Positions 1 through 49,978 of a DNA stretch of 64,000 nt are shown one piece after another (position 1 is the stretch's first letter; each line of letters opens with the position of its first letter). The notes below the pieces were generated by a model. It was given only the letters and a program-made list of their open reading frames with translations. It was not told where the DNA came from and made no database searches. Position numbers and translations under genes: made by a program. The stretch is from Ignavibacteria bacterium (GTDB lineage: Bacteria; Bacteroidota; Ignavibacteria; Ch128b): contig JABLYA010000001.1 of assembly GCA_013177855.1 (NCBI GenBank), positions 1,527,573 to 1,591,572 of the forward strand, written 5' to 3'.

Positions 1-1
1 T

Positions 2-2236
2 CTTCAAGCGGGTGTAATTGACGGACATTTTCGTGGTGGTCGAGCAAACGATGTTGCATATCTTATTGATGGTGTGATGGTTACTGACCCATTCAATGGT
101 GGATTTAACATTGAGGTTGAAAACACTTCAATCCGTCAAATGGAAGTTATAACCGGTACATTTAATGCTGAGTATGGTCAGGCACTTTCAGGAGTTGTGA
201 ATATTGTTACTGAAGGTGGTTCAGATAAATTTAAAACAGATATAAGCGCTTACACTGGTAATTTCGTCACCACTCATACAGATATTTTTAGAAATTTAGA
301 TCGGGTTGACAGAATATCTCAAAAGAATTTACAAATCACCATTAGTGGACCTTTAAGGCCAATTAAAAATCTTTATTACTTTTTGACAGTCCGCTACTAC
401 GATGATATTGGTCATTTATATGGAAAAAGAGTTTATAATACCTGGGATGATGTTCCCTTTTATCCCGATCCATTAAATAAATCTATATGGATTCCTCGAA
501 ACACAGGCGATGGTGCCTATGTGCCGATGAATCCATTCACAAAGTATTCAGCAAATGGGAAGTTGACTTATGCTCTTCCATCAATTGTTCTTTCTTATTC
601 ATTCTTCTATGATAAAACCAGAAACAAATACTATGACCATTACTGGTCCTGGACACCCGACGGAATGATGACGCATTACGGAAATGATTGGATTCATAAT
701 TTTCAATTGACACATTATATCTCTTCAAACACAAGTCACAGTTTCAAATTCACATTTAATAATTACAACTTCAAAGGTTACTTGTACGAAGATGAATTTG
801 ATCCAAGATATGTTGATCCACGACAGGGAATTGCAATATCTGGTTATACTTTTCGATCTGGTGGTAATCAAGGTGGAAGATACACTCGATTCACAAGATC
901 TTACATTGCTCAATGGTCAATTTCTTCTCAGGTAAGCAAAGAGCATAAAATTGGTTCTGGCTTTGAATTGAGATATCATCACATTTATAATCATTACAAA
1001 GATTTAATTAATCTGACAGATGGAGTTGTAGATAGTCTTGGGAATAAAGTCTTTACTCCCGGATATCCTGATAAAGGAACAATTACTGACCGTGGTTCAC
1101 ATATCGAATACACAAGGTTTCCTTATGAAGCTTCGGCTTACATTCAGGACAAAATGGAATACGACATAATGATTATAAACGCCGGTGTGCGGTTTGATTA
1201 TTTCAATGCAAACGCGAAACTTCCTGCAGATAAAAGAAATCCAACTCGAAATCCAAACTTTCCTGGTTACAATGAATGGGTAAAAGCAAAACCGAAAATG
1301 CAGGTCAGTCCGAGACTTGGTGTTTCATTCCCAATCACTGATAAAGGAATCATAAGATTTTCGTATGGACATTTCTTCAAGATTCCGAATTTCGAAAATC
1401 TATATGCAAATCCAGAGTTTGTCGTCCAGCCAGGTAATTCTCTCAGCTCAATTATTGGCAATCCTGATTTAAATGCTGAAAAGAATGTGATTTATGAATT
1501 GGGTCTGCAACAGGTTTTAATGGAAGATCTTGCATTAAACGCTTCGCTTTACTACAGAGATATTCGTAACTGGCTCGGTATGGAGATCGTTAATACTTAT
1601 GAAGGTTTCAAATATGCTCGTTTCATTAATCGTGATTATGCAAATGTTAGAGGCTTGATTGTTACGCTTGATAAGAGATTTTCTAATTATTTCGGAGCTA
1701 AGTTAGATTACACATATCAAATTGCTGAAGGTAATGCTTCTGATCCTTATGCTGTCTACAATTACAATCAAACAAATCCGCCAATTGAAGAATCGAAAAC
1801 CGTTGTGCCTCTTGATTGGGATCAACGACATACTTTGAATCTAAGTATAACTGTAGGAATTCCTGGTGATTGGTCAGCAGGATTAATTTTCCAGTATGGT
1901 TCAGGAACTCCTTATACTGAAGATATCAAGATTTCCCGCGGTGTCCGATTTGAAAATGGCGGTAGAAAGCCAACATTTATTAATCTCGATTTAAGGGCGG
2001 ATAAATTTTTCAAAGTTTTTGGCGTCAATCTTTACACTTACGCTATTATTTATAATGTACTTGATATCAAAAACGAGGTTGGCGTTTATGCAACAACTGG
2101 AAGAGCAACTGCTGATTTAAATGTCAAATATGCTGGTGAAATTATTGGTTTGAATACCATCGATGAGTATATCAAAAATCCAGCAATGTATTCATCACCA
2201 AGACAAATTCGTCTTGGAATCGGATTCCAATTATAA
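2..2236 (+). CDS. TonB-dependent outer membrane receptor, 5' end truncated by window edge
   Basis: Frame is open from position 2 with no stop before the annotated Met at 74. N-terminal plug-like motifs (FRGGRANDVAYLIDGV, NIVTEGG); long beta-barrel-like region rich in Y/F/N/G. Confidence 0.7.
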   Translation, partial: LQAGVIDGHFRGGRANDVAYLIDGVMVTDPFNGGFNIEVENTSIRQMEVITGTFNAEYGQALSGVVNIVTEGGSDKFKTDISAYTGNFVTTHTDIFRNLDRVDRISQKNLQITISGPLRPIKNLYYFLTVRYYDDIGHLYGKRVYNTWDDVPFYPDPLNKSIWIPRNTGDGAYVPMNPFTKYSANGKLTYALPSIVLSYSFFYDKTRNKYYDHYWSWTPDGMMTHYGNDWIHNFQLTHYISSNTSHSFKFTFNNYNFKGYLYEDEFDPRYVDPRQGIAISGYTFRSGGNQGGRYTRFTRSYIAQWSISSQVSKEHKIGSGFELRYHHIYNHYKDLINLTDGVVDSLGNKVFTPGYPDKGTITDRGSHIEYTRFPYEASAYIQDKMEYDIMIINAGVRFDYFNANAKLPADKRNPTRNPNFPGYNEWVKAKPKMQVSPRLGVSFPITDKGIIRFSYGHFFKIPNFENLYANPEFVVQPGNSLSSIIGNPDLNAEKNVIYELGLQQVLMEDLALNASLYYRDIRNWLGMEIVNTYEGFKYARFINRDYANVRGLIVTLDKRFSNYFGAKLDYTYQIAEGNASDPYAVYNYNQTNPPIEESKTVVPLDWDQRHTLNLSITVGIPGDWSAGLIFQYGSGTPYTEDIKISRGVRFENGGRKPTFINLDLRADKFFKVFGVNLYTYAIIYNVLDIKNEVGVYATTGRATADLNVKYAGEIIGLNTIDEYIKNPAMYSSPRQIRLGIGFQL

Positions 2237-2252
2237 AATCGGGAGATGAAGA

Positions 2253-5200
2253 ATGATGCGGAAATTTGTTTTATTTATACTTTTAATTTTGGTTGAGTAT
2301 ACATTTTCACAGGTACCTTATCAAATTCAACTTTATCGTGATGAACCAAAAGGAAACATCCAGTATCGCCGTGAAGGCGTAATGGATGGTAATCAGATTA
2401 GAACATTGTTCTACAATAATGGTGAAGTTGGTCAGTGGCCCTATCAACCTTCTGGGGAATGGCCCAAAGGCAGTGGACATTCTTACCTTGATGGTGTTTG
2501 TGTATTAATTGCATCAGAAGTTACAGCACCAGGAACTGGACAAAAAATTCATCCATTAGAATCATCTTATCGTGAATGGATGGATAAAGATCCTGTAACT
2601 GGAGAAATCTGGGGACTTGAACCAGTCCCGGGTTATGTAAATCCTTCTTCAACAAAACCTGCAATAAACACAGATCCAAAATCCTGGCCACCGATTTGGC
2701 CTCGTGCTTTAAATCTAACCCCTGAATGGAATGGCTATTGGTATGGTTATTTCGGCCGCGGTGTGATGAATTCTGATTTTGAGACTTTCTTTGTTATGGA
2801 TGACTCGAGAGATAAGGAATTTACTCGTCCACCATATTTATATTTTCCAATTGCATCGGATTCGGATCGTGGTGGACTTGGACTTAGAGTTGAAGTTCGC
2901 GGTTTTCAATGGTCTCATGTTTTAGCTGAAGATATAATTTTCTGGCATTATGATATTGTAAATATTTCTGATTTTGATTATCCAACTACAGTTTTTGGTT
3001 TTTATACTGACTGTGGAGTTGGTGGAACTCAAGATTCAGGTGATGATTGTGCATCGTTCGATTTGAAACTCGACCTGGCTTACTGCTATGACAATGATGG
3101 CTTTGGTGTCCCTGATATGTGGAAAACAGGTATGTATGGTTATGCTTATCTGGAAAGTCCCGGAAATCCTTGGAATGGGATTGATGATGATGAAGACGGT
3201 ATGGTCGATGAGCGAAGAGATGATGGTATTGATAATGATGGTGATTGGATTCCATATTCTGATTTAAATGGAAACGGCAAATGGGATCGAGAAGAAAATG
3301 AACCGCTTAATGATGACCTTGGTAAAGATGGTGTGGGTCCTTGGGATAGACAGTACAATGGACCCGACGAAGGTGAAGGTGATGGGATTCCAACAGACGG
3401 TGAACCTCATTTTGACAAAACTGATAAAGATGAATCAGATCAGATTGGTTTAACTGCTGTTTCAATTTATAGACTTGGCGAAGGTGGAACTGGCGGCGGC
3501 TGGCCCAAAGATGATGAATCAATGTGGCTAAAAATGGTTGCCGGCACTTTTGATACCTCACTGCAAAGATCAAACATTTCAATGGTCTTCGCTTCTGGTC
3601 CATTCCCACTTTATAAAGGACTTAGAGAAAGATTCTCGATGGCTTTAGTTTTTGGTGAAGATTTAAATGACTTAGTATTCAACAAAGAAACTGTACAACA
3701 GATTTACAATGCAAATTATAATTTCTCTAAACCACCACTTAAACCAAAACTGACAGCCGTACCTGGTGATGGTAAAGTATTTCTTTACTGGGATAATGTC
3801 GCCGAAGAATCCCGGGATCCATTCTTAGGTTATGAAGATAATGATCCAAGAAAAGGATATAAAAAAGATTTCGAAGGTTATTTAATTTATCGAAGTCAAG
3901 AACCAGAATTCAACGATATCAAAGTTATTACTGACTCTCGCGGATTGCCAAGATACTGGAAACCAATTGCCCAGTTCGATAAGATTGATGGAATAAAAGG
4001 ACCGGATCCAGTTGGAATTAATGGAGCTCATTTCTGGCGTGGTGATGATACTGGTTTACAATATTCTTATGTAGATACTGATGTTAAAAACGGCGTTACA
4101 TATTATTATGCCTGCGTCTCTTATGATATGGGTGATCCAAATTATGGAACAACTGGACTGCAACCTAGTGAATGCACTAAAATTATAACTGTTGATTATG
4201 CCGGTAATGTTCAATTCGTCGATATCAATTGTGCTGTTGTAACTCCAAATGCACCTGTTGCGGGTTATGTGCCTCCGCAAATTTTAGGTGATACTAAACA
4301 AGTTACCGAAGGAGTTGGTACTGGATTTTTACAATTTCATGTTTTCGATCCTAGAGTAGTTGAAGATGGAACCAAATACGAATTTATATTCAAATCAACC
4401 AATGATTATCCACTTTACAAAACTCTGAAATATGAAATTGTTCGAACTAAAGGCAGTGATGTAGATACAATTCTTACTGTTGATTCATCATATATTGGTG
4501 CTGATAAAGTTAGTCCACCATTCGATGGGTTAGCAGTTACAGTAATAAATGATACGGCAGTCACAATCATTGATTCTCTAACCGGCTGGCTTGTCGGAAA
4601 AAGTAATCTTGTTATGAATGTTTTCCCCGATCAAACACCAATTCGTGGTGTTCCCTGGCCCGCTGATTATGAAATTACATTTTACGATGGACCAGCTGAT
4701 ACCTGTTACATTTCTTCACCACCGCTTTACAGGAGATTCCCTGTAAACTTCAAAGTATGGAATAAAACAGAACAAAAATATTGTAAGATAGCAGTTCAGG
4801 ATAGAGATCAATCTCAATCTCTTTCTCTTGGTGATGTGATTCAAATTCTTGAGTTCAAAGATAAAGTCATCACACCTGCAAATATTCGTTTTGCCTGGAA
4901 TATAACTTACAATTCTCCGTTTAATCCAAATGTTCAACCAGAATATCCGAAAGATGGAGATAAATTTATTATAACCACAAGGAAACCATTTAAAACTGGA
5001 GATAAATTCATAGTTACAACTAAAGCAGCTGCCACAGATAATGCGCTGGCGAAATCTCAACTTTCAAAAATTGATGTAGTGCCGAATCCTTATTTAGGTG
5101 CCGCTGCTTGGGAGAAGAGGAATCTTAATACAACCGGTCGTGGTGAACGAAAAATTGATTTTATAAACCTTCCGAATAAATGCACAATTAGAATCTATAC

Positions 5201-5375
5201 ACTTTCAGGACAGCTGATTAAAACTATCTATAAAGATTCGGGTTATCTCGATGGTACTGTCTCCTGGAATTTAATAACTGATGACGGAATGGAAGCAGCC
5301 TACGGTGTCTATGTTTATCATGTTGAAGCTCCCGGCATTGGAGAATACATCGGCAAATTTGCATTAATCAAATAG
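2253..5375 (+). CDS. Large secreted Asp-rich (thrombospondin type 3-like, Ca-binding) repeat protein with T9SS-type C-terminal domain
   Basis: Signal peptide MMRKFVLFILLILVEYTFSQ; D-rich repeats (DNDGDWIPYSDLNGNGKWD, DDLGKDGVGPWD); FN3-like segment (PGDGKVFLYWDN...YLIYRS); C-terminus ...GVYVYHVEAPGIGEYIGKFALIK. Confidence 0.5.
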   Translation: MMRKFVLFILLILVEYTFSQVPYQIQLYRDEPKGNIQYRREGVMDGNQIRTLFYNNGEVGQWPYQPSGEWPKGSGHSYLDGVCVLIASEVTAPGTGQKIHPLESSYREWMDKDPVTGEIWGLEPVPGYVNPSSTKPAINTDPKSWPPIWPRALNLTPEWNGYWYGYFGRGVMNSDFETFFVMDDSRDKEFTRPPYLYFPIASDSDRGGLGLRVEVRGFQWSHVLAEDIIFWHYDIVNISDFDYPTTVFGFYTDCGVGGTQDSGDDCASFDLKLDLAYCYDNDGFGVPDMWKTGMYGYAYLESPGNPWNGIDDDEDGMVDERRDDGIDNDGDWIPYSDLNGNGKWDREENEPLNDDLGKDGVGPWDRQYNGPDEGEGDGIPTDGEPHFDKTDKDESDQIGLTAVSIYRLGEGGTGGGWPKDDESMWLKMVAGTFDTSLQRSNISMVFASGPFPLYKGLRERFSMALVFGEDLNDLVFNKETVQQIYNANYNFSKPPLKPKLTAVPGDGKVFLYWDNVAEESRDPFLGYEDNDPRKGYKKDFEGYLIYRSQEPEFNDIKVITDSRGLPRYWKPIAQFDKIDGIKGPDPVGINGAHFWRGDDTGLQYSYVDTDVKNGVTYYYACVSYDMGDPNYGTTGLQPSECTKIITVDYAGNVQFVDINCAVVTPNAPVAGYVPPQILGDTKQVTEGVGTGFLQFHVFDPRVVEDGTKYEFIFKSTNDYPLYKTLKYEIVRTKGSDVDTILTVDSSYIGADKVSPPFDGLAVTVINDTAVTIIDSLTGWLVGKSNLVMNVFPDQTPIRGVPWPADYEITFYDGPADTCYISSPPLYRRFPVNFKVWNKTEQKYCKIAVQDRDQSQSLSLGDVIQILEFKDKVITPANIRFAWNITYNSPFNPNVQPEYPKDGDKFIITTRKPFKTGDKFIVTTKAAATDNALAKSQLSKIDVVPNPYLGAAAWEKRNLNTTGRGERKIDFINLPNKCTIRIYTLSGQLIKTIYKDSGYLDGTVSWNLITDDGMEAAYGVYVYHVEAPGIGEYIGKFALIK

Positions 5376-5382
5376 CGGAGAG

Positions 5383-6420
5383 ATGAAAATGATGAAAAAG
5401 ATTTTTTACTCAGCTTTGATTTTTGTTATGATATTAAATTATGCTTTTGCACAGACATTCAAAACAAATGTTTCAAAGAGAGGAACTACTGCCGCACCTT
5501 TCCTCTCAATTGGTCAGAGTGCAAGAGCAATTGGTATGGGTTCAGCTTTCGTCGGTGCCGTAAATGATGTGAGCGCAATTTACTGGAATCCTGCTGGACT
5601 AACTAAAGCACAGGGCGGACAAATTCTAGTCGATTACACAAACTGGATTGCCGGCACCAAATACAATTTCCTCGCTGTGAGTTATAATATTGGTGATTAT
5701 GGAACAGTTGGTGTTAGTTTTACAGGTTCTAATATTGGTGATATGAAAGTCACAACGATTGAAGAACCTTGGGGAACTGGTGAGGTCTTCTCCGCTACCG
5801 ATATGGCAATCAGTCTTGCTTATGCTTTGCAATTAACAGATAGATTTTCCATTGGGTTCAATCCTAAATTTGTCTATCAGGGAATCTGGAAAATGAGTGC
5901 AAGTGCTTTTGCAATTGATATGGGTGTTCAATATGTAACTCCATTTGATGATGCAATTCTTGCAATGTCAATTTCAAATTTTGGAACGACAATGCAGCTT
6001 CTTGGCCAGTCGAATCTTGTTTTGTATGATCCAGATCCTTACACAACTGGTAATAACGGCAAAATTCCAGCTTATCTCGAAACAAAAACTTACGATTTGC
6101 CGCTGACATTTAGAGTTGGTGTTGCATATAATCCAATTAGATCTGCAAATCACAGATTGACTTTTGCATTCGATGCTTTGCATCCAAGTGATGACTATGA
6201 AAGTGTCAATGTTGGTTTCGAATATGGATTTCAAGATTTTCTTTTCATTCGTGGTGGATACAAATCTTTATTCCTTGATGACTCAGAAGAATCATTTGCG
6301 CTTGGATTTGGTTTGAAACAAAACCTTATGGGTAATGTAGCTGTTAAAGTTGATTACGCTTATCAAGATTTTGGAAGATTGAACAACATTCAAAAATTTA
6401 CTCTTACTGTTTGTTTCTGA
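5383..6420 (+). CDS. Outer membrane beta-barrel protein, PorV/PorQ-like (possible T9SS shuttle protein)
   Basis: Signal peptide; motif ARAIGMGSAFVGAVNDVSAIYWNPAGL near N-terminus; C-terminal aromatic residue (ends ...TVCF); TGA stop. Confidence 0.5.
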   Translation: MKMMKKIFYSALIFVMILNYAFAQTFKTNVSKRGTTAAPFLSIGQSARAIGMGSAFVGAVNDVSAIYWNPAGLTKAQGGQILVDYTNWIAGTKYNFLAVSYNIGDYGTVGVSFTGSNIGDMKVTTIEEPWGTGEVFSATDMAISLAYALQLTDRFSIGFNPKFVYQGIWKMSASAFAIDMGVQYVTPFDDAILAMSISNFGTTMQLLGQSNLVLYDPDPYTTGNNGKIPAYLETKTYDLPLTFRVGVAYNPIRSANHRLTFAFDALHPSDDYESVNVGFEYGFQDFLFIRGGYKSLFLDDSEESFALGFGLKQNLMGNVAVKVDYAYQDFGRLNNIQKFTLTVCF

Positions 6421-6433
6421 TAGACGCTCTCCT

Positions 6434-6472
6434 CCCGGATTCTGTTTCGACGGAATCCGGGACTGAATTTTT
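6434..6472 (+). terminator. Candidate rho-independent terminator after PorV-like gene
   Basis: Inverted repeat cccggattc / gaatccggg followed a few nt later by a T-run (aatttttt). Confidence 0.45.
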
Positions 6473-6484
6473 TAAGGACTGCCT

Positions 6485-8290: not shown

Positions 8291-8297
8291 ATCAAAT

Positions 8298-10544
8298 ATG
8301 GGTGTTCAAATGCAGCAAACATTTTTAATTTTTTCAATCTTTGTTTTAGTAATTACATCTCAACTTTTTTCTCAACAGTCAAAATCAATCGATGAGAAAG
8401 TACAGGAATTGCTCTCAAAAATGACAGTTGAAGAAAAAGTTGGTCAAATGACTCAAGTTACGCTCGAGGTTGTTTCTAAAAAACAGGGAACAAAAACTCA
8501 AAAGCACGAACTTGATGAAAAGAAATTAGAAGAAGCAATTGTTAGATATCATGTCGGTTCAATTCTAAATGTCTATGATGTTGCTCATTCAATCGATTAC
8601 TGGCATGAAGTAATTACAAAAATTCAGGACATTGCAACAAAAAAAACGAGGCTCGGAATTCCAGTTATTTATGGCATAGATGCAATTCACGGAGCTACTT
8701 ACACAAAAAACTCAACGCTCTTTCCTCAGGCTTTAGCTGTGGCGTCAACTTTTAACAGAAATATTGCTGAAAGAATTGGTGAGATTACTTCACTAGAAAC
8801 TCGAGCAAGTGGAATTCCCTGGAATTTTTATCCTGTGATGGATCTTGGAAGACAGCCTTTGTGGCCAAGACTGTGGGAAACATTTGGTGAAGATGTATAT
8901 CTTGCTCAGCAGCTTGGAATGGCTTACATTAAAGGTGCTCAGGGGAATGATGTCAGCCGTGCTGATAAACTCGCAACTTGCCTTAAACATTATGTCGGTT
9001 ACAGTTTCCCTTTCAATGGTTTTGATAGAACTCCAGCTTATATGTCCGAAAGAACTTTGCGGGAATATTTTCTGCCGCCTTTCGAAGCAGGAATAAAAGC
9101 CGGGGCAAAAACTATTATGGTCAATTCAGGTGAAGTAGATGGAATTCCCGGTCATGCGAATTATCATCTGCTCACAGAAATTCTTCGTGGTGAATTAAAA
9201 TTTGATGGATTTGTTGTCTCTGATTGGGAAGATATTATACGTCTTCATACAAGAGATAGGGTTGCATCATCACCAAAGGAAGCAGTTAAGATAGCTGTGA
9301 TGGCAGGCGTTGATATGAGTATGGTTCCGTATAATTTTAGTTTTTATGATTTACTTCTTGAGCTTGTAAAAGAAGGCTCTGTTCCAATGTGGAGAATTGA
9401 TGAAGCAGTGAGCAGAATCTTGAAAGTTAAATTTGAACTTGGTTTGTTTGAAAATCCATATCCGAAAAAAGATTACTTAGAAAAATTTGCAAGTTCCGAA
9501 CATACTCAGGCTAATCTGGAAGCAGCAAGAGAATCAATTATTCTTGCAAAGAATGATAACAACATTCTTCCATTAAAAAAGAATAAAAAAGTTTTTGTTA
9601 CAGGACCAACTGCAAATAAACTTTCGGTCTTAAATGGCGGCTGGACAATTACCTGGCAAGGAAATGAAGAAGAACTTTATCCTCAGGAGAAAAACTCAAT
9701 ATTAGAAGCAGTAATCGAAAAAGTAGGGAAGAAAAATGTTTTGTTTGAGGAAGGATGTTCTTTTGATAAAGAATTAAATTCAAACTCAGCAATTCAAAAA
9801 GCAAAACAATCTGATGTAATAATTCTTTGTCTCGGTGAACCAGCTTATTGTGAAACTCCTGGCAATATAAACGATCTCACACTTCCAGAAGCACAGTTGA
9901 ATTATGCCAAAAAATTAATTGCGACTGGTAAACCAGTAATTCTTGTAATCGTTGAGGGCCGCCCAAGATTAATTACAAAAATTTTCAATGACGTGAAAGG
10001 CGCTTTAATTGCTTTTCTGCCGGGTATGGAAGGAGGGAATGCAATCGCTGATGTATTGTTTGGCGATGTAAATCCAAGCGGAAAGCTGCCAATCTCTTAT
10101 CCCAAATATCCAAACGCAATTGTTCATTACGATTATAAACCAATTGAAAATTCTGCTGAGAATAAATATGACCCACTCCTTCCTTTTGGATTTGGTTTGA
10201 GTTATACAAAATTCTCTTACTCAAATTTAAGATTAAACAAAAATGAAATAACTGAAGATGATGAGTTGCTTGTTTCGGTTGATGTGAAAAACGAAGGTTC
10301 AATAAAAGGGAAAGAAGCAGTTTTGATGTACATTACAGATGTTTATGGTCAAGTTAGCCGCCCCAATAAACAATTAAAAGGTTTCGAAAAGATTGAACTT
10401 AATCCTGGCGAGACAAAAACGGTTACTTTCAAGATAAACAAAGATCATCTTTCATTTATTGGAATAAATAACAAAAGAATTATTGAGCCCGGTGAGTTTA
10501 TTGTAACAATTGGTGATCTGCAATCAAAATTTTATTTGAAATAA
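8298..10544 (+). CDS. bglX: Glycoside hydrolase family 3 beta-glucosidase
   Basis: GH3 motifs KHYVGYS and GFVVSDWEDI (nucleophile Asp); signal peptide; about 750 aa as expected for BglX-type enzymes. Confidence 0.8.
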   Translation: MGVQMQQTFLIFSIFVLVITSQLFSQQSKSIDEKVQELLSKMTVEEKVGQMTQVTLEVVSKKQGTKTQKHELDEKKLEEAIVRYHVGSILNVYDVAHSIDYWHEVITKIQDIATKKTRLGIPVIYGIDAIHGATYTKNSTLFPQALAVASTFNRNIAERIGEITSLETRASGIPWNFYPVMDLGRQPLWPRLWETFGEDVYLAQQLGMAYIKGAQGNDVSRADKLATCLKHYVGYSFPFNGFDRTPAYMSERTLREYFLPPFEAGIKAGAKTIMVNSGEVDGIPGHANYHLLTEILRGELKFDGFVVSDWEDIIRLHTRDRVASSPKEAVKIAVMAGVDMSMVPYNFSFYDLLLELVKEGSVPMWRIDEAVSRILKVKFELGLFENPYPKKDYLEKFASSEHTQANLEAARESIILAKNDNNILPLKKNKKVFVTGPTANKLSVLNGGWTITWQGNEEELYPQEKNSILEAVIEKVGKKNVLFEEGCSFDKELNSNSAIQKAKQSDVIILCLGEPAYCETPGNINDLTLPEAQLNYAKKLIATGKPVILVIVEGRPRLITKIFNDVKGALIAFLPGMEGGNAIADVLFGDVNPSGKLPISYPKYPNAIVHYDYKPIENSAENKYDPLLPFGFGLSYTKFSYSNLRLNKNEITEDDELLVSVDVKNEGSIKGKEAVLMYITDVYGQVSRPNKQLKGFEKIELNPGETKTVTFKINKDHLSFIGINNKRIIEPGEFIVTIGDLQSKFYLK

Positions 10545-10601
10545 AAATTTATTTTGAGCTTGTCGAAGGATGACTTTAACGAAAATGTTTTTAATTCTAT
10601 C

Positions 10602-10634
10602 GCTGTCATACTTCGATGAACTCAGTATGACAGC
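10602..10634. repeat. Palindromic hairpin repeat unit (conserved-loop hairpin family) in GH3-GH5 intergenic region
   Basis: gctgtcatacttcgatgaactcagtatgacagc: 11-bp arms around the CTGAG/CGAAG-type loop in reverse orientation; same unit recurs near 39.68 kb and 48.9 kb; partial unit gagcttgtcgaaggatgac at 10553-10571. Confidence 0.6.
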
Positions 10635-10703
10635 ATAAATTGTCATTCTGAATCTTGATTAAATTAATAACTTCGAACGCTAATAAAAATTTGAGAGGAA
10701 AAA

Positions 10704-12701
10704 GTGCTGAAGGTACCAAAAAATTATTTCTCTATTCTCCTTTTACTTTTATTTCTTTTCTTCAATCCAGAAAGTCTTCTTTCGATTGGTTTTCTTAAAG
10801 CAAAAGGAAAAGTAATAGTTGATGGAACAGGTCAAGAATTTTATTTGAAAGGAATTGGACTTGGCGGTTGGCTTTTGCAGGAAGGTTATATGCTTCACAC
10901 CTCTGGTTTTGCAAATGCCCAATGGCAAATCAGACAAAAAATTGTCGATTTAATTGGAGAAGCAAATACAGAAATATTCTATGAAACTTATCGAAGAAAT
11001 TTCATTCGAAAAATTGATATTGATTCAATTAAAGCCTGGGGATTTAATTCAATTCGGCTGCCTTTTCACTGGAATCTATTTGCTGTCAATACGAATCCGC
11101 CTCAATTTATTAACAAAGGTTTCGAAATAATCGACTCCCTTTTAGCATGGTGCGAAGCAAATCAGCTTTATCTTATTCTTGATATGCATGCCGCTCCTGG
11201 TGGACAAAGCGATGAAAACATCAGTGATTATAATCCTGCTTATCCTTCTTTATGGCAAAGTGAACAAAATAAAGATTTGACAGTCAAAATCTGGAGAAAA
11301 ATTGCTGAAAAATACAAAGACAAAGAATGGATTGGTGGTTATGATTTATTGAATGAACCTAAATGGAATCTGCCTCCAAACAATCAGCCGCTTCGAGAGT
11401 TATATATTCGAATTACTGACACAATTAGAGCTGTTGATACAAATCATATAATTTTCATTGAAGGTAATTGGTTTGCGACTGATTTTACGGGACTTACTCC
11501 ACCATGGGATAATAATATGGTTTACAGTTTTCATAAATACTGGAATTCAAATGATCAAGGAAGTATTCAATATTTAATTGATATAAGAAACCAGTATAAT
11601 GTTCCATTGTGGCTTGGCGAGACAGGTGAAAATTCTAACAAGTGGTTTGTTGATTGCGTCGAATTGATGAAACGAAACAATATCGGTTGGGCTTGGTGGA
11701 CTTGGAAAAAAATTGAAACTATTGCAGGTCCGCTTTCAGCTGTTATGTCGCCATTTTATCAAACTTTGTTGAATTATTGGAGCGGCTCGGGTCCAAGACC
11801 GAGCGCAACTTATGCTTTTAATGCACTTATGCTTCAGGCAGAAAATTTAAAATTTGAATTATGTGAATTCAGAAAAGATGTAATTGATGCATTAATGCGG
11901 CAACCAAATAACACTCAGACAATTCCATATAATCAAAACATAATTCCAGGGACTGTTTACGCTACTGAATATGATATGGGAAAATTAAATTATGCTTATT
12001 ATGATGTTGACTATCAAAATGTAGGCGGCGGAACCTGGAACTCTGGAGGAAAATTTAGAAACGATGGCGTTGATATTGAAACCTGTATTGATTTCGGTTC
12101 AAATGGATATAACGTCGGTTGGATTCAAAATGGTGAGTGGTTGAGATATACCTGTAATATTACGCAAAGCGGGACTTATAAAATTAAAATTAATGTAGCT
12201 TCAATGAATACAGGTGGACAAATCCTTTTGCGTCTCGATGGCTTAGTTCTTGGCGGTCTGATCAATGTACCAAACACAAATGGCTGGCAAAACTGGCAAT
12301 TTGTTGAACTTAACAATGTTTATCTCCCGCAAGGCATTCATCAACTTGAAGCAAGATTCTTTAACGGAGGCTTTAATCTCAGTCATTTTGAGTTTGAATT
12401 ACTTTCTACTGATGTGGAAGAAAAAGATTTATTACCGAAAGATTTTGATTTAAAACAAAATTATCCTAATCCGTTTAATTCAAAGACAGTTATTACTTAT
12501 TCAATTCCTGAAATCACAAATATCAAACTCAAAGTTTATGATTTACTCGGTAATGAAACTTTCACCATTGAAGAAGGATTAAAATCTCCAGGAACTTATG
12601 TCGAAGAATTTGATGCTCATAATCTTTCGAGTGGAACTTACTTACTGAGATTAGAAACTGAGAAAAAAACCTTTGTCAGAAAGATGATAATTTTGAAATG
12701 A
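10704..12701 (+). CDS. Glycoside hydrolase family 5 (endo-beta-glucanase/cellulase-like) with carbohydrate-binding domain and T9SS C-terminal domain
   Basis: GH5 catalytic motifs LLNEP (acid/base) and WLGETGEN (nucleophile); GTG start with upstream gagagg RBS; CTD LKQNYPNPFNSKTVITYSIP. Confidence 0.75.
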   Translation: MLKVPKNYFSILLLLLFLFFNPESLLSIGFLKAKGKVIVDGTGQEFYLKGIGLGGWLLQEGYMLHTSGFANAQWQIRQKIVDLIGEANTEIFYETYRRNFIRKIDIDSIKAWGFNSIRLPFHWNLFAVNTNPPQFINKGFEIIDSLLAWCEANQLYLILDMHAAPGGQSDENISDYNPAYPSLWQSEQNKDLTVKIWRKIAEKYKDKEWIGGYDLLNEPKWNLPPNNQPLRELYIRITDTIRAVDTNHIIFIEGNWFATDFTGLTPPWDNNMVYSFHKYWNSNDQGSIQYLIDIRNQYNVPLWLGETGENSNKWFVDCVELMKRNNIGWAWWTWKKIETIAGPLSAVMSPFYQTLLNYWSGSGPRPSATYAFNALMLQAENLKFELCEFRKDVIDALMRQPNNTQTIPYNQNIIPGTVYATEYDMGKLNYAYYDVDYQNVGGGTWNSGGKFRNDGVDIETCIDFGSNGYNVGWIQNGEWLRYTCNITQSGTYKIKINVASMNTGGQILLRLDGLVLGGLINVPNTNGWQNWQFVELNNVYLPQGIHQLEARFFNGGFNLSHFEFELLSTDVEEKDLLPKDFDLKQNYPNPFNSKTVITYSIPEITNIKLKVYDLLGNETFTIEEGLKSPGTYVEEFDAHNLSSGTYLLRLETEKKTFVRKMIILK

Positions 12702-14383
12702 TGAAAATTATAATTCAAAGTTTTTTATTAATCCTTTTTCTGTGCCTGATTTCAATTAGAGCTCAGTCGGTTAATTTCACTTCTTCAAATCTCCCAATAG
12801 TTGTGATAAATACTTTTGGTCAGGAAATTCCAAACGAATATAAAATTCAAGCACGAATGGGAGTAATTTATAATGGTGAAGGTGTAAGAAATTACATTAC
12901 AGATCCATTCAGTCATTACGATGGTTGGATCGGGATTGAATTGCGTGGTTCAAGTTCACTAACATTTCCTAAAAAAAGTTACGCAGTCGAAACAAGAGAC
13001 TCGCTCGGGAACGATAGATCAGTTTCATTGCTCGGTTTCCCATCTGAAGCTGATTGGGTTTTTTATGGTCCATACAATGATAAAACTTTAATTCGCGATG
13101 TTCTTGCTTATAAACTTGCTCGAGATTTGGGTAGATATGCTTCGAGGTCAAAATTTTTTGAACTCGTTATAAATGGCGAATACAAAGGAGTTTATGTTCT
13201 TCTCGAAAAAATTAAAAGAGATGCAAATCGAGTAAATATAAAAAAATTAAATCCAGCTGATACATCAGGCGATGCATTGACTGGCGGATATATCATTAAA
13301 ATTGATAAGCTTGATGGTGAAAATAACGATGGCTGGTATTCTAACTTTCGTCCATTCCCGCAATTAAGTGCAAGAATTTTTTATCAATATCATTATCCAA
13401 AACCCAGTGAAATCGTTGAAGCTCAAAAAAATTACATCAAAGCATGGATTTATGCATTTGAGTCGGCAATGTTTGGACCTTATTACGCCGATTCAATTCT
13501 TGGTTATCAAAAGTATATTGATGTCAATTCGTTTGTTGATTACATTCTCTTAAATGAACTTGTTAAAAATATCGATGCCTACCGATTGAGTACTTTCTTT
13601 TATAAAGATAGGGACAGCCGCAATCCAAAATTATTTGCTGGACCTGTTTGGGATTTCAATTTAGCTTTTGGAAATTGTGATTATTATCAGGCATTCAATT
13701 CAAGTGGATGGTATCTTGAGTATGTTTCGGAATATTCAAACATTCCAAGCTGGGAAAATTATTTCATTCCATTCTGGTGGAAAAAAATTTTTAATGATCA
13801 AAATTTTCGAACTAAATTCAGACAAAGATGGATTGAGCTTAGAAATTCTGTCTGGACAAATGAAAAAATTAATTCTACCATCGATTCGCTTGTTCAATTA
13901 CTTGAAGAATCAAGACAGAGAAACTTTCAGAAATGGCCTGTCATTGGTCAATATGTTTGGCCTAATTACTATGTTGGTCAAACTTACGAAGAAGAAATCA
14001 ACTATCTGAAAAACTGGCTCACATCAAGATTAGCGTGGATGGATTATCAGTTAATTTCTGATGTCGAAAAAGAGAAATCAGAAATTTCAATTAATGACTT
14101 CAAACTTCTACAAAATTATCCGAACCCATTTAATTCAAATACAATAATAAGTTATATCATTCCAGGAAATTTAAACTCACTACAAAAAGTTACTTTGAAA
14201 ATTTATGATGTTCTCGGTAGAGAGATCACAACACTAATTGATGATTATCAAACTGCCGGCTGTTATTCTGTAAATTTTGATATCGAGACAATTAAACAAC
14301 AAAGTATATCGACGAGCGTTTTAATTTGCCAGCTTTTTGTTGGAAATAAAACTCAAACTATCAAAATGCTTTATTTGAAATGA
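12698..14383 (+). CDS. CotH kinase-family protein with T9SS C-terminal domain
   Basis: CotH-like core (YGPYNDKTLIRDVLAYKLARDLGRYASRSKFFELVINGEYKGVYVLLEKIKRD); signal peptide; CTD LLQNYPNPFNSNTIISYIIP; 4-bp overlap with upstream GH5 gene. Confidence 0.65.
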   Translation: MMKIIIQSFLLILFLCLISIRAQSVNFTSSNLPIVVINTFGQEIPNEYKIQARMGVIYNGEGVRNYITDPFSHYDGWIGIELRGSSSLTFPKKSYAVETRDSLGNDRSVSLLGFPSEADWVFYGPYNDKTLIRDVLAYKLARDLGRYASRSKFFELVINGEYKGVYVLLEKIKRDANRVNIKKLNPADTSGDALTGGYIIKIDKLDGENNDGWYSNFRPFPQLSARIFYQYHYPKPSEIVEAQKNYIKAWIYAFESAMFGPYYADSILGYQKYIDVNSFVDYILLNELVKNIDAYRLSTFFYKDRDSRNPKLFAGPVWDFNLAFGNCDYYQAFNSSGWYLEYVSEYSNIPSWENYFIPFWWKKIFNDQNFRTKFRQRWIELRNSVWTNEKINSTIDSLVQLLEESRQRNFQKWPVIGQYVWPNYYVGQTYEEEINYLKNWLTSRLAWMDYQLISDVEKEKSEISINDFKLLQNYPNPFNSNTIISYIIPGNLNSLQKVTLKIYDVLGREITTLIDDYQTAGCYSVNFDIETIKQQSISTSVLICQLFVGNKTQTIKMLYLK

Positions 14384-14844
14384 TAATAAAAAATTTTGTT
14401 CAGGGATCTTATACAGCTCCTCTAAAAATTTCCGGAATGCAATGATTTTTATTTTCTGCTGCGCCTTACTGCTTAATCTTTTTAACCTAAAAATTTGTTA
14501 CCGAGTGTAATTTATTTCGATTTAATGATTACTATTCTCGATTAATATTTCTCAAAGAATTTCCATTCTTATTTCAACTCACCAGTTATATCAAATCCGG
14601 CAATGAAATTCGTTTACTATTTTCATTATACTTAACAAAATTCTTTTTTTACTTCATTGAGCAAGACATATAATTTGTTTTGGGCATTAAAATTCGGGAG
14701 AAATATTTAGCAGATAGTTTTGTTATTCAATAAAAGATTTTAATGGGAAATCTAATAACAGTTCTTTTAATGAAATGTAAAGTCAAATTATTGATTTTGT
14801 TTTTTAGAAAATTTAACTTGACTCAACAAAAGCGGGAGTTCAAA

Positions 14845-16800: not shown

Positions 16801-16874
16801 TTATTACAAAGAGTTTTGGACTAAGGGAGAAAATTTCAGACCTGTACGAATTTAGAGTTGGTGAGTATTTCAAT

Positions 16875-18260: not shown

Positions 18261-18282
18261 ATTATTCAAAATTTAATTCATC

Positions 18283-18326
18283 CAATTCCTCAAAGTTCAA
18301 TTAGAGCTTTGAGGAATTTTCATTTT
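18283..18326 (+). terminator. Candidate rho-independent terminator
   Basis: aattcctcaaag ... ctttgaggaatt 12-bp inverted repeat followed by ttcatttt, 23 nt after the stop codon. Confidence 0.5.
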
Positions 18327-18467
18327 AAATAATAATTGTTCTTGAGTTTGTGGGTTTAAGAGACTTATTTACCAAAAGTAAAATAAGGAAATTGCTTGCT
18401 TTACTTTTCGGGCTGAAAGTAAAATAAGAAATCTAAAAACAGAGGAATTTCAAAAAATTGAAATGAT

Positions 18468-45317: not shown

Positions 45318-46279
45318 AATTTAATTTGTCTAAAAATTTTTCAGATTAATTCTGCTTAAAAAAGTATTAATTCTTCTCTTTCATTAAAATCATTATTAAA
45401 CACAACTCTTGAAAGTTGCATTGGGTGAAGAGCTTTAAATTCGGGGAATTGTAAATCATTAATTTCAAATTGAACCAGGCTTCTGTGCAGCTGGCATCTT
45501 CAAATGTAAAAGTAAATCTATCATAATCATCTGGTTGAGCTGGTGTCCTTTTACAGGTTAAGGTTGTTAGAGCTGTGGTAAACAAAAAATGAAAAATGAA
45601 AATTTTTTTAAAAGACTAAAAATAAATCCTCCTGTGATATAGGAGAAAAATAAGAATTAATAAAATGAAATCCTTTGCTTGTGATTTTGTAAACAAGAAT
45701 TTTAAAGCTGTTTAATATATGCGGGGGGCGGACATTAGAGGACTTACACTGATTATTGTATTTGAGATTTTAATAATCATCTTTTTCGCTAAAAGGCTTA
45801 ATGGGTATTTACTAATCTAAAAACATTTTTCAATTATGTTTTTATGAGATTTATCTATAACAATACTCAGATTAAAAAATATTGGGATATGAATATTTAT
45901 TGAATGAAATTCATAGAATGTAAATGTTATACAAATAGTTGTTCTTTCTAAAAGAGATTTATTTGTTTCCGGGAAAATTGCTTCGCTTAACTTACAATAG
46001 ATTTTATTTTTGAAAATTTTCCGTTAAAAAATTATTGACCTTAAATGATGATGCACATAAAAAATAGTATTCTTAGCTTATAGAAATTTATCTAAGATGG
46101 AAAGTACAGACACAGAACTGTTCAGTTGTTATTTTTCATTTATCTGTTATTTTTTCGGTATGAGTTAAATTATACTCTTTAATATCAAAATTCCATTTAC
46201 ACAAATTTTAAAGACTCTGAGGTTTGCTTAATTTCATTGGACAAATGTAAGATTAAAGTTAAAATTTTTAATCAATTTC

Positions 46280-49963: not shown

Positions 49964-49978
49964 AATTAAATCAACAAA

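What the first reader, a model, noticed from the sequence alone, without database searches (positions are those of the whole stretch)
1..14383. Beta-glucan utilisation locus built on a TonB-dependent receptor and T9SS-secreted hydrolases rather than a SusC/SusD lipoprotein system
A TonB-dependent receptor, a 1040-aa Asp-rich putative binding protein, a PorV-like barrel, GH16 (EIDIEILG), GH3 (SDW) and GH5 (NEP/GETGE) are colinear on one strand with short gaps, and at least three carry NYPNPFN-type T9SS C-terminal domains. No SusD-like gene is visible. This looks like a polysaccharide utilisation locus (laminarin or mixed-linkage glucan) of the Ignavibacteria style, where cargo is exported by T9SS and possibly anchored via PorV.
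Basis: partly seen in the sequence, partly recalled or inferred. Interest (0 to 1): 0.45.

Follow-up and report, generated by a model that had tools for sequence, protein, structure and literature searches.

The report
SusD-less beta-glucan locus with TonB–PorV-like module
This is a real beta-glucan utilisation gene cluster of an Ignavibacteria bacterium. Its core is a conserved gene trio, a TonB-dependent receptor, a 1040-residue secreted protein and a PorV-like barrel, which recurs across many related phyla where Bacteroides would carry SusC/SusD, and I found no paper describing it.

Summary
Window 1-14383 carries, on one strand with gaps of 7-159 nt:
- a 5'-truncated TonB-dependent receptor (TBDR);
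- a 1040-aa protein with no Pfam model, called "X" here;
- a PorV/PorQ-family barrel;
- GH16 + malectin + T9SS C-terminal domain (CTD);
- GH3;
- GH5 + CBM6 + CTD;

There is no SusD and no room for one. The GH16 is a Fibrobacter-type lichenase, so a mixed-linkage beta-glucan target is likely.

The larger result concerns the trio TBDR-X-PorV-like.
- In 80 loci from other genomes, X is preceded by a TBDR in 71 of 72 cases and followed by a PorV-like gene in 74 of 76. A CBM+CTD protein usually lies upstream.
- The loci come from Ignavibacteriota, Calditrichota, Marinimicrobia, Rhodothermales and Balneolales.
- The trio sits next to beta-1,3/1,4-glucan, beta-1,2-glucan or beta-mannan genes.
- X has a galactose-mutarotase-like supersandwich, an Asp-rich insert, an FN3-like domain, a hypervariable middle and a divergent T9SS CTD.

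Best reading (inferred, about 0.55): X is exported by the T9SS, docks on its own PorV-like barrel, and acts as the surface partner of the transporter, as SusD does for SusC. This is a new variant of a known kind. Interest 0.62.

The parts
1..2236 (+). TonB-dependent receptor (TBDR), 5'-truncated by the window edge. The full-length orthologue is 907 aa.
   Evidence: Plug + TonB_dep_Rec_b-barrel (PF00593, 3.7e-26). The orthologue L005:7261-9984 carries an N-terminal CarboxypepD_reg domain. It reaches only 55 bits against the 368-bit cutoff of the SusC/RagA model TIGR04056, and only over model positions 2-207.
2253..5375 (+). Protein X (1040 aa), with a signal peptide and no lipobox. Proposed surface partner of the TBDR.
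   Evidence: No Pfam hit. It belongs to a family of 4571 50%-identity cluster representatives at E<=1e-3, and every source name shown is 'hypothetical protein'. It is flanked by a TBDR in 71/72 and by a PorV-like gene in 74/76 related loci.
2319..3737 (+). X residues about 23-495: galactose-mutarotase-like beta-supersandwich, interrupted by an Asp-rich insert that is probably Ca-binding (residues 301-400, nt 3153-3452).
3738..4247 (+). X residues 496-665: FN3-like domain (DFEGYxIYRS ... YYYAxVSYD).
   Evidence: Conserved motifs in alignments A1-A3. Beta-strand pattern in the model. Mean pairwise identity among paralogues is 0.42.
4248..5042 (+). X residues 666-930: hypervariable beta-sandwich region, the candidate substrate-specific part.
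   Evidence: pLDDT mostly 80-94 in the full-length model, in which DSSP shows mostly beta strands for these residues. Mean pairwise identity is only 0.21-0.24 among paralogues and 0.50 among orthologues, against 0.35-0.50 and 0.72-0.83 for the rest of X.
5043..5372 (+). X residues 931-1040: divergent T9SS C-terminal domain. It starts with VVPNPY and carries a conserved insert of about 25 aa (WE.....GRGER.I.F..LP).
   Evidence: hhalign against type-A CTDs of the same loci gives probability 92.4%, E 5e-7. There is a weak hit to the PorU CTD (NF033707, E 0.0027). It is 34% identical (E 3e-17) to the C-terminus of ORF 16875-18260, which hits the PorZ and PorU CTD models. TIGR04183 itself does not hit X.
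5383..6420 (+). PorV/PorQ-family outer-membrane beta-barrel (345 aa), a dedicated paralogue.
   Evidence: NF033709 gives 215.6 bits against a cutoff of 90. It is below the equivalog cutoffs of PorQ (104.7/220), PorV2 (89/325) and PorV (77.3/250). It matches F. johnsoniae PorV chain 6h3i_F at 1.2e-10. It begins 7 nt after X ends.
6433..6462 (+). Strong stem-loop followed by a T-run, between the PorV-like gene and GH16. Probable terminator or attenuator that sets the trio apart.
   Evidence: 13-bp stem with 7 GC pairs, the best terminator-like site in 1-19000. A similar hairpin precedes the TBDR in the 96% identical contig (L005:7108-7140).
6485..8290 (+). GH16 lichenase-type endo-beta-1,3-1,4-glucanase + malectin domain + T9SS type-A CTD.
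   Evidence: Pfam and NCBIfam. Best solved relatives are Fibrobacter succinogenes 1,3-1,4-beta-glucanases at 1.2e-57. EIDIE catalytic motif at aa 70.
8298..10544 (+). GH3 beta-glucosidase (BglX-like) with a signal peptide and no CTD, so presumably periplasmic.
   Evidence: GH3 N-terminal, C-terminal and Fn3-like domains. BglX model 487 bits against a cutoff of 666. SDW motif at aa 308.
10704..12701 (+). GH5 + CBM6 + T9SS type-A CTD.
   Evidence: PF00150 7e-33, PF03422 1e-24, TIGR04183 47.1 bits. Solved relatives include CelC, GH5 exo-1,3-glucanases and CBM6 modules of a cellulase and a GH16 endo-1,3-beta-glucanase.
12698..14383 (+). CotH-domain protein with a CTD-like tail. Its role is unknown, but it is conserved in close orthologous loci.
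   Evidence: PF08757 1.4e-59. CTD below threshold (TIGR04183, 19.2 bits against a cutoff of 23). It holds the same position in L001, L005 and L017.
14743..18260 (+). Two ORFs (685 aa and 461 aa, in different frames, 74 nt apart) that together resemble a split, very divergent X-family paralogue without its own TBDR or PorV-like gene. Whether they belong to the locus is uncertain.
   Evidence: The 461-aa ORF matches X profile positions 681-1022 with probability 99.3%, E 1.5e-20. The 685-aa ORF aligns collinearly to X 158-589 but only at 13% probability. The next strong terminator-like hairpin is at 18284-18318.

Best explanation
Window 1-14383 is the distal two-thirds of a beta-glucan utilisation operon set of an Ignavibacteria bacterium. 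The most likely target is mixed-linkage beta-1,3-1,4-glucan. The proposed pathway has six steps.

1. Shown by family assignment: GH16-malectin and GH5-CBM6 (and CotH) carry type-A CTDs, so they are exported by the T9SS to the cell surface, where the lichenase-type GH16 would cut the polymer.
2. Inferred: oligosaccharides are captured and imported through the TonB-dependent receptor.
3. Inferred from anatomy, strict synteny and T9SS precedent: the 1040-aa protein X is itself a T9SS substrate. Its divergent CTD is probably not cleaved but is held by the dedicated PorV/PorQ-family barrel encoded 7 nt downstream. This places X on the surface next to the receptor as a non-lipoprotein glycan-binding or lid partner, the role SusD and the surface glycan-binding proteins play for SusC.
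4. Inferred: the conserved supersandwich, Asp-rich and FN3 parts and the CTD would make the constant contacts. The hypervariable middle (residues 666-930) would give substrate specificity.
5. Inferred from family assignment and the absence of a CTD: the GH3 finishes degradation in the periplasm.
6. Seen in a 96% identical contig: a sodium:solute symporter, a CBM9-CTD binding protein, a GH2-CTD enzyme and a sigma54-type response regulator lie just upstream of the window.

The same four-gene core (CBM-CTD protein, TBDR, X, PorV-like) is reused with other enzyme sets for other glycans across FCB-group phyla.
For: - Gene content and order.
- Lichenase assignment of GH16. CBM6 and GH5 relatives.
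- Upstream genes in near-identical and orthologous contigs.
- Trio conservation: a TBDR lies directly upstream of X in 71/72 loci and a PorV-like gene directly downstream in 74/76. Median gaps are 6 and 11 nt, and the gene two upstream carries a CTD in 49/59.
- Spread: the loci come from Ignavibacteriota, Calditrichota, Neomarinimicrobiota, Rhodothermales, Balneola and Eisenbacteria.
- Different glycan sets beside the same core: GH16/GH3/GH5; GH94 + GH144-type + GH35, which is beta-1,2-glucan; LacI + CBM4_9-CTD + ABC importer + GH130, which is beta-mannan, in cultured Roseithermus sacchariphilus RA and in Marinimicrobia.
- Genes flanking that Roseithermus cassette are induced 2.5-4 fold on hemicellulose (PMC7409140).
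- X has a carbohydrate-enzyme-type beta-supersandwich with no catalytic domain and a T9SS-type CTD. Only the middle of X is variable.
- In a tandem duplication all three components diverged in parallel, to 41, 44 and 38% identity.
- Precedent: the PorU CTD stays bound to PorV and the PorZ CTD to PorQ, and cognate PorV-like barrels are proposed to protect CTDs from cleavage (PMC10202324). Type-B CTD proteins bind PorP/SprF barrels (PMC9143113).
Against: - No direct evidence shows that X, the TBDR and the PorV-like barrel touch each other, that X is surface-exposed, or that its CTD is retained.
- X's CTD does not reach the TIGR04183 threshold, and the structural match to PorZ/PorU has TM below 0.15.
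- No sugar-binding site was identified in X. The best-conserved part, not the variable part, has the carbohydrate-related fold.
- The CBM-CTD protein upstream could be the real binding protein, which would leave X another role.
- The PorV-like barrel could serve the neighbouring type-A CTD proteins instead.
- Substrate assignment rests on homology only. GH5 specificity is ambiguous, and some orthologous loci carry laminarinase-like GH16 instead.
Confidence: 0.55

Rival explanations
1. X and the PorV-like barrel form a locus-specific T9SS sorting or attachment module, a private analogue of PorZ-PorQ or PorU-PorV. It would process or anchor the CTD-bearing hydrolases and CBM proteins of the same locus and would not be a partner of the transporter.
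For: PorZ and PorU are the top Foldseek hits of the full-length X model. The CTD of X and of its paralogue hits the PorU and PorZ CTD models. Most loci contain type-A CTD proteins next to the trio.
Against: The alignment of paralogues has no invariant Cys or His column, so a PorU-type cysteine peptidase is unlikely. The structural matches have TM below 0.15. This reading does not explain why X follows a TBDR in 71/72 loci, with a median gap of 6 nt. The N-terminal fold is a sugar-enzyme-type supersandwich, whereas PorZ, from my recollection of its structure rather than a test here, has beta-propellers.
Confidence: 0.15
2. X is an ordinary T9SS cargo: a surface glycan-binding protein or adhesin whose CTD is cleaved and replaced by an A-LPS anchor, or which is released. 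The PorV-like barrel is only a dedicated shuttle or a FadL-type channel. The TBDR works alone, as in proteobacterial TBDT-CAZyme clusters.
For: The X CTD is homologous to cleavable type-A CTDs. From my own knowledge, not tested here, TBDT-only carbohydrate loci exist in Proteobacteria. The CBM-CTD protein shows that ordinary cargo is part of the core.
Against: Every cassette keeps its own PorV-like copy, including tandem duplicates. The X CTD has a family-specific conserved insert that the type-A CTDs of the same loci lack. The CTD is as conserved as the core of X.
Confidence: 0.2
3. The gene neighbourhood is coincidental or purely regulatory. The trio imports something other than glycans, for example a metal chelate or a peptide, and merely sits beside CAZyme genes in this genome.
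For: The best NCBIfam TBDR hits are haem- and siderophore-type subfamilies, all far below their cutoffs. The trio is bracketed by hairpins.
Against: The association with CAZymes, CBM proteins, sugar ABC importers and LacI- or sigma54-type sugar regulators holds across phyla and across three glycan types.
Confidence: 0.05

Closest known systems
SusC/SusD-type polysaccharide utilisation loci of Bacteroidota, for example the Bacteroides beta-glucan PULs (PMC7974029 and PMC7157763, abstracts seen)
   Same: Both have a TonB-dependent transporter with an N-terminal carboxypeptidase-regulatory-like domain, directly followed by a gene for a large surface protein. Both have a surface endo-glycanase (GH16), a periplasmic GH3, extra glycan-binding proteins and a dedicated regulator in one locus. 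Both occur as many paralogous loci, one per glycan.
   Different: There is no SusD/RagB protein. The transporter fails the SusC/RagA family model (55 bits against a cutoff of 368). The partner X is about 1040 aa, has a supersandwich, FN3 and beta-sandwich architecture, has no lipobox, and ends in a T9SS CTD. A third invariant component, a PorV/PorQ-family barrel, is present. The enzymes and binding proteins are T9SS cargo, not lipoproteins.
T9SS attachment-complex pairs PorU-PorV and PorZ-PorQ (review PMC10202324)
   Same: In both, a large surface protein with a T9SS CTD would be retained and bound by a PorV-family 14-stranded barrel. The X-family CTDs hit the PorU and PorZ CTD models, and the barrel meets the PorV/PorQ family model.
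   Different: The barrel is below the PorV and PorQ equivalog cutoffs. X has no invariant Cys/His pair that could serve as a catalytic dyad. From my recollection of the PorZ structure, not tested here, X also lacks PorZ's propellers. The pair is encoded inside nutrient-uptake loci next to a TBDR, in many copies per genome, and not once per T9SS.
Type-B CTD proteins anchored by PorP/SprF-like barrels: PG1035-PorP and SprB-SprF (PMC9143113)
   Same: A cargo gene sits next to the gene for its own outer-membrane barrel. The barrel is proposed to anchor the cargo at the surface independently of PorU and A-LPS.
   Different: The barrel family differs (PorV/PorQ, not PorP/SprF) and so does the CTD type (a type-A relative, not type B). 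The pair is coupled to a TonB-dependent transporter and glycan catabolism, not to motility.
BamG (FadL-like barrel) holding the surface lipoprotein BamH in the Bacteroidota BAM complex (PMC12578637)
   Same: A 14-stranded FadL/PorV-type barrel is used as a docking platform for a surface protein beside a larger barrel.
   Different: The function is unrelated (OMP assembly), the partner is a lipoprotein, and no T9SS CTD is involved.
Ignavibacterium album beta-1,2-glucan gene cluster IALB_1177-1187 (PMC8861115) and the Rhodothermus marinus xylan locus Rmar_1069-1073 (PMC6987092)
   Same: Loci of the I. album type (GH94, GH144-type, GH35) contain the same TBDR-X-PorV-like core (L085, L083, L075, L048). 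The R. marinus table lists Xyn10A, a TonB-dependent receptor, a hypothetical protein with a Por CTD, and another hypothetical protein, in the same order.
   Different: Those papers mention only a TonB-dependent transporter or 'hypothetical proteins'. The trio is not recognised as a unit. I could not verify by sequence that Rmar_1071 and Rmar_1072 are X and PorV-like.

Membership tests
Canonical Bacteroidota PUL (SusC/SusD-defined) | A SusD/RagB-family gene adjacent to the transporter | tested here: not met
   None of the nine proteins encoded at 1-18260 hits a SusD family. The intergenic gaps are too small for another gene. No SusD family appears among the 25 most frequent Pfam families of 89 neighbours in related loci.
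Canonical Bacteroidota PUL (SusC/SusD-defined) | Transporter belongs to the SusC/RagA family (TIGR04056) | tested here: not met
   The full-length orthologue L005:7261-9984 scores 55 bits against a cutoff of 368.25 and matches only model positions 2-207. The window copy is truncated.
Canonical Bacteroidota PUL (SusC/SusD-defined) | N-terminal carboxypeptidase-regulatory-like extension on the transporter | tested here: met
   PF13620 and PF13715 are recorded on the orthologous TBDRs. This cannot be seen in the window itself because the 5' end is cut off.
Canonical Bacteroidota PUL (SusC/SusD-defined) | Surface proteins are lipoproteins (lipobox Cys) | tested here: not met
   By inspection of the N-termini, X, GH16, GH3 and GH5 have signal peptides with no Cys. 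CotH has a Cys inside the hydrophobic core, followed by an AQS-type cleavage site. Surface targeting is by CTD instead.
Carbohydrate utilisation locus in the broad sense (TBDT + CAZymes + regulator + inner-membrane transporter) | Co-localised, co-oriented transporter, glycoside hydrolases for one glycan, importer and regulator | tested here: met
   for the window. for the symporter and the sigma54 response regulator (and histidine kinase) upstream in orthologous contigs.
T9SS type-A cargo (TIGR04183 / PF18962) | C-terminal sorting domain above the model threshold | tested here: met
   GH16 scores 34.1 bits and GH5 47.1 bits against a cutoff of 23. CotH scores 19.2 bits, below threshold, so it is only probable.
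T9SS cargo (applied to protein X) | C-terminal sorting domain | tested here: inconclusive
   X has no TIGR04183 or PF18962 hit and only a weak PorU-CTD hit (E 0.0027). However, profile-profile homology to type-A CTDs is 92.4%, E 5e-7, and the paralogue at 16875-18260 passes TIGR04183 (27.8 bits against a cutoff of 23).
PorV/PorQ family (NF033709) | Score above the family cutoff | tested here: met
   215.6 bits against a cutoff of 90. Homology to solved F. johnsoniae PorV at 1.2e-10.
PorV proper (NF033710) or PorQ proper (NF033711) | Score above the equivalog cutoff | tested here: not met
   PorV 77.3 against 250, PorQ 104.7 against 220, PorV2 89 against 325.
GH16 lichenase (endo-1,3-1,4-beta-glucanase) | GH16 domain with an ExDxE catalytic motif lacking the laminarinase-type extra residue, and closest relatives that are characterised lichenases | tested here: met
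   PF00722 4.4e-33. EIDIE motif at aa 70-74. Top solved relatives are F. succinogenes and Bacillus 1,3-1,4-beta-glucanases. The BglS equivalog model is below cutoff (163.7 against 300), so the exact specificity is not proven. That the lichenase motif lacks the extra residue found in laminarinases is from my own knowledge.
GH3 / GH5 / CotH | Pfam domain above the gathering score | tested here: met
   GH3_N 226 bits, GH3_C 152 bits, PF00150 114.7 bits, PF08757 202.7 bits.

The most novel reading that the evidence does not exclude
TBDR, X and the PorV-like barrel form a three-component outer-membrane glycan-import machine, widespread in FCB-group phyla outside the classical SusC/SusD-rich Bacteroidota lineages. 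In it, a T9SS-exported, CTD-retaining, non-lipoprotein partner docked on its own FadL/PorV-type barrel does the job of SusD. It would be a second, independent or ancestral solution to surface glycan capture. It would occur as many substrate-specific paralogues per genome and be used by abundant uncultured groups such as Marinimicrobia/SAR406, Calditrichota and Ignavibacteriota.
Probability: 0.4. Interest if true: 0.8.

Novelty: new variant of a known kind. Interest (0 to 1): 0.62.

Why it matters
PUL prediction and much marine and sediment glycan-cycling genomics rely on finding SusC/SusD pairs. Lineages without SusD are therefore scored as poor polysaccharide users, or as having 'TBDT-only' clusters.

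A conserved, easily recognised TBDR-X-PorV-like marker has three useful properties.
- It is common: 4571 50%-identity clusters of X, and more than 590 hits among the genome-contig collection of one genome per species.
- It would allow glycan-uptake loci to be called in Ignavibacteriota, Calditrichota, Marinimicrobia, Rhodothermales and Balneolales.
- It would link the T9SS mechanistically to nutrient import, giving a function to a very large 'hypothetical protein' family and to a whole class of orphan PorV/PorQ paralogues.

The idea is directly testable. The cassette occurs in a cultured strain (Roseithermus sacchariphilus RA) and in source-named proteins of Ignavibacterium album and Rosettibacter firmus, and probably also in Rhodothermus marinus.

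Tried and rejected
- An exact-sequence look-up of the window's X protein found nothing. The 99% identical P0001 was used instead.
- The first full-length AF2 model was poor for residues 1-660 (pLDDT 62). A second model of residues 1-670 with a deeper alignment succeeded.
- A Foldseek search of the full-length model gave PorZ and PorU as top hits, but with TM below 0.15. I treat this as weak support only.
- The afdb50 library was unavailable.
- phmmer of the X CTD against PDB sequences found nothing.
- A profile search with A2 added little diversity beyond the first search.
- A strict sigma54 -24/-12 pattern was not found in the window or in L001, L002 or L005. There is only a near-match, TGGCATTAAATTTGA, at L005:2880-2894 upstream of the symporter gene.
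- The sigma70-type promoter scan was at chance level: 68 sites against 72.7 expected.
- My first crude ORF-neighbour count (69/75 and 71/77) under-counted because antisense shadow ORFs were picked. It was replaced by an HMM search of the flanks.
- Ten full-text searches found no description of the trio.
- No supplementary tables are held as text in the library for the Roseithermus transcriptome paper, so fold-changes of X, the TBDR and the PorV-like gene themselves are unknown.
- Rejected: X as a PorU-like peptidase, because the alignment of paralogues has no invariant Cys or His.
- Rejected: X as a GH15/GH65/GH94-type enzyme. Only 230-306 residues align to those much longer chains. DSSP shows an almost all-beta protein, so the (alpha/alpha)6 catalytic barrel those enzymes have, from my own knowledge, is absent.

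Full report
**1. Observation**

All are on the plus strand.
- 2-2236: a TonB-dependent receptor (TBDR) that runs off the window start.
- 2253-5375: a 1040-aa protein with no Pfam family, called X here.
- 5383-6420: a PorV/PorQ-family barrel (NF033709, 215.6 bits against a cutoff of 90).
- 6485-8290: GH16 + malectin + type-A T9SS C-terminal domain (CTD).
- 8298-10544: GH3, with no CTD.
- 10704-12701: GH5 + CBM6 + CTD.
- 12698-14383: a CotH-domain protein with a sub-threshold CTD.

The quoted motifs are at the expected places. The gaps are 16, 7, 64, 7, 159 and -4 nt. There is no SusD hit and no space for one. The rest of the window holds housekeeping genes (M16 peptidases, DeoC, UppS, BamA) and unrelated CTD proteins. 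The locus therefore ends at about 14.4 kb, or at about 18.3 kb.

**2. Context that the window cuts off**

Window 1-14727 is 92-96% identical in DNA to a contig of an Ignavibacteria MAG (L005). [quoted passage not shown]

The same order is found in a complete Ignavibacterium sp. genome, where X is 81% identical (L001). In a more distant MAG (X 70% identical) the set is histidine kinase, sigma54 regulator, symporter, SGBP_B_XBD + CBM9 + CTD, TBDR, X, PorV-like, two GH3 and a laminarinase-like GH16.

**3. Substrate**

- The GH16 domain matches solved Fibrobacter succinogenes 1,3-1,4-beta-glucanases at 1e-57. Bacillus lichenases come next and laminarinases lie far behind. It has the EIDIE motif.
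- GH3 is BglX-like.
- GH5 is ambiguous. Its relatives include GE32, CelC and exo-1,3-glucanases.
- The CBM6 resembles CBM6 modules from a cellulase and from a family-GH16 endo-1,3-beta-glucanase.

A mixed-linkage beta-glucan target is the best reading. Laminarin-type glucans are not excluded, especially since some orthologous loci carry laminarinase-like GH16. None of this is experimental.

**4. Anatomy of the trio**

The supersandwich is interrupted by an Asp-rich stretch of about 100 residues with many invariant D, E and G columns. An FN3-like domain follows. Residues 666-930 are modelled confidently as mostly beta strands.

The last 110 residues are homologous to type-A T9SS CTDs (hhalign 92.4%, E 5e-7). 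They carry a family-specific conserved insert after VVPNPY and miss the TIGR04183 threshold. The closest CTD models are those of PorU and PorZ.

Conservation among paralogues (mean pairwise identity):
- supersandwich, N-terminal part: 0.35
- Asp-rich insert: 0.50
- FN3-like domain: 0.42
- middle, residues 666-930: 0.21-0.24
- CTD: 0.49

The barrel meets the PorV/PorQ family model. It is below the equivalog cutoffs of PorV, PorQ and PorV2. It matches solved F. johnsoniae PorV at 1.2e-10.

The TBDR orthologue has the carboxypeptidase-regulatory-like N-terminal domain typical of SusC-like transporters. It fails the SusC/RagA model, scoring 55 bits against a cutoff of 368 and matching the N-terminus only.

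The strongest terminator-like hairpin of the region lies right after the PorV-like gene, at 6433-6462. A similar hairpin precedes the TBDR in L005. The trio may therefore be a separately tuned transcription unit.

**5. The trio is a widespread cassette**

X belongs to a very large family with no Pfam or NCBIfam model and only 'hypothetical protein' names.
- 5259 90%-identity clusters at E<=1e-5.
- 4571 50%-identity cluster representatives at E<=1e-3, of which 678 are at E<=1e-30.

The 80 best loci come from Ignavibacteriota, Calditrichota, Neomarinimicrobiota/Marinimicrobia, Rhodothermales, Balneola, Eisenbacteria, Stahlbacteria and unclassified FCB bacteria.

I called ORFs in these loci and searched the flanks of every X gene with HMMs.
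- A TBDR lies directly upstream in 71 of 72 cases with enough flank.
- A PorV-like gene lies directly downstream in 74 of 76.
- Median gaps are 6 and 11 nt. The gene two upstream carries a T9SS CTD in 49 of 59 cases.
- Where examined, that upstream gene encodes a non-catalytic protein, often with a CBM4_9 or CBM9 module.
- One contig has two complete cassettes in tandem. Their three components are 41, 44 and 38% identical, so they diverged in parallel.
- One Calditrichia chromosome has at least two cassettes (L055 and L083).

**6. Different glycans beside the same core**

- GH16, GH3 and GH5 in the orthologues of the window locus.
- GH94 + PF10091 (GH144-type endo-beta-1,2-glucanase) + GH35 in L048, L075, L083 and L085. 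This is the architecture of the Ignavibacterium album beta-1,2-glucan cluster studied in PMC8861115. [quoted passage not shown]
- LacI, CBM4_9-CTD, the trio, a sugar ABC importer and GH130 in the complete genome of cultured Roseithermus sacchariphilus RA (X = AWN76_014005). A Marinimicrobia contig carries LacI, GH5, a large CTD protein, the trio, an ABC importer and GH130.

In strain RA, genes flanking the cassette are induced on hemicellulose medium: LacI 2.5-fold, two components of the adjacent ABC importer, and GH130 4-fold (PMC7409140). My mapping of those locus tags onto the genes is inferred from gene order.

Aggregated Pfam hits of 89 neighbours in divergent loci are dominated by CTDs, ABC sugar-transport components, CBMs and GH families. 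The Rhodothermus marinus xylan locus table (Xyn10A, TonB receptor, hypothetical protein with a Por CTD, hypothetical protein; PMC6987092) looks like the same core, but I could not check the sequences.

**7. Mechanism**

Shown:
- family memberships, domain anatomy and strict synteny;
- association with glycan catabolism across phyla.

Inferred:
- the CTD-bearing GH16 and GH5 act at the surface;
- the TBDR imports the oligosaccharides;
- GH3 acts in the periplasm and the symporter takes up the products;
- X is exported by the T9SS and stays docked, through an uncleaved CTD, on its own PorV-like barrel beside the TBDR, serving as binding or lid partner.

The docking step rests on precedent. PorU stays bound to PorV through its retained CTD, and PorZ likewise to PorQ. 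Cognate PorV-like barrels are proposed to protect CTDs from cleavage (PMC10202324). Type-B CTD proteins bind PorP/SprF barrels (PMC9143113). A FadL-like barrel holds a surface protein in the Bacteroidota BAM complex (PMC12578637).

The conservation pattern suggests constant contacts through the N-terminal half and the CTD, and specificity in residues 666-930.

Rivals:
- a private sorting or attachment module for the locus's cargo (0.15);
- X as ordinary cleaved cargo, with the barrel acting only as shuttle or channel (0.20);
- an unrelated import function (0.05).

**8. Comparison with the known, and novelty**

The system works like a PUL but is not a SusC/SusD PUL. SusD is absent, the SusC family model is not met, and the surface proteins are not lipoproteins.

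It borrows the PorV-family barrel plus retained-CTD principle from the T9SS attachment complex, but the barrel is neither PorV nor PorQ proper.

Ten full-text searches found no paper describing the trio. The two papers whose loci appear to contain it treat these genes as hypothetical proteins or mention only the transporter.

The library does not cover most subscription journals, so prior description cannot be excluded. I therefore file the window locus as a new variant of a known kind: a SusD-independent, T9SS-linked glycan-uptake module.

**9. Limits**

- Nothing here is experimental.
- The interaction of the three proteins, the surface exposure of X, the fate of its CTD and the substrate are all inferences.
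- The genome's canonical T9SS genes could not be inspected.
- The window genome itself is not in the look-up collection.
- The TBDR in the window is truncated, so its N-terminal features come from orthologues.

**10. Verdict**

The most interesting content is the conserved TBDR-X-PorV-like cassette, which reaches well beyond this locus.
- Interest: 0.62.
- Most novel reading: a second, T9SS-anchored solution to SusD's job, used across FCB phyla. Probability about 0.4, interest 0.8 if true.

Noticed in passing
window 14743-16800 and 16875-18260 (+): Two adjacent ORFs in different frames look like a split, very divergent orphan paralogue of protein X. The 461-aa ORF equals the C-terminal third of X including the CTD (hhalign 99.3%). 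The 685-aa ORF is collinear with X 158-589 but only at 13% probability. There is no TBDR or PorV-like gene next to them. This could be a frameshifted pseudogene, a sequencing error or a real two-gene form.
   Followed up: partly
window 6433-6462; L005:7108-7140: Strong GC-rich hairpins with T-runs bracket the TBDR-X-PorV-like trio, one after the PorV-like gene and one before the TBDR in the 96% identical contig. This suggests separate or attenuated transcription of the trio within the locus.
   Followed up: partly
window 10545-10703 (palindrome at 10602-10634); L005:18308-18839: The GH3-GH5 spacer contains an 11-bp-stem palindrome (GCTGTCATACT...AGTATGACAGC). The near-identical contig L005 has about 530 extra bases here, with a second, 87% identical copy of a 91-nt segment. 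This may be a small repeat or mobile element.
   Followed up: no
L005:2880-2894 (outside the window): A near-consensus sigma54 -24/-12 element, TGGCATTAAATTTGA, lies upstream of the symporter gene. This would fit the sigma54-type response regulator encoded at the head of the locus. It fails the strict pattern at the -12 GC.
   Followed up: partly
L063 (FCB group MAG), 404-14295: Two complete TBDR-X-PorV-like cassettes sit in tandem. Their components are 41, 44 and 38% identical, so the whole cassette was duplicated and the three components diverged in parallel.
   Followed up: yes
window 18468-19484 (-), 40749-44885 (-), 46280-48454 (-): Three further T9SS-CTD proteins lie outside the locus: a 338-aa and a 724-aa protein with no other recognisable domain, and a 1378-aa FG-GAP/ASH-Ig protein.
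   Followed up: no
window 46001-50000: The lowest GC of the window, 0.278-0.299 against about 0.33-0.35 elsewhere, coincides with the 724-aa CTD protein of unknown function.
   Followed up: no
window 24172-27448 (+): An undecaprenyl-diphosphate synthase gene overlaps the start of a BamA (Omp85, POTRA-domain) gene. This is housekeeping and unrelated to the finding.
   Followed up: no
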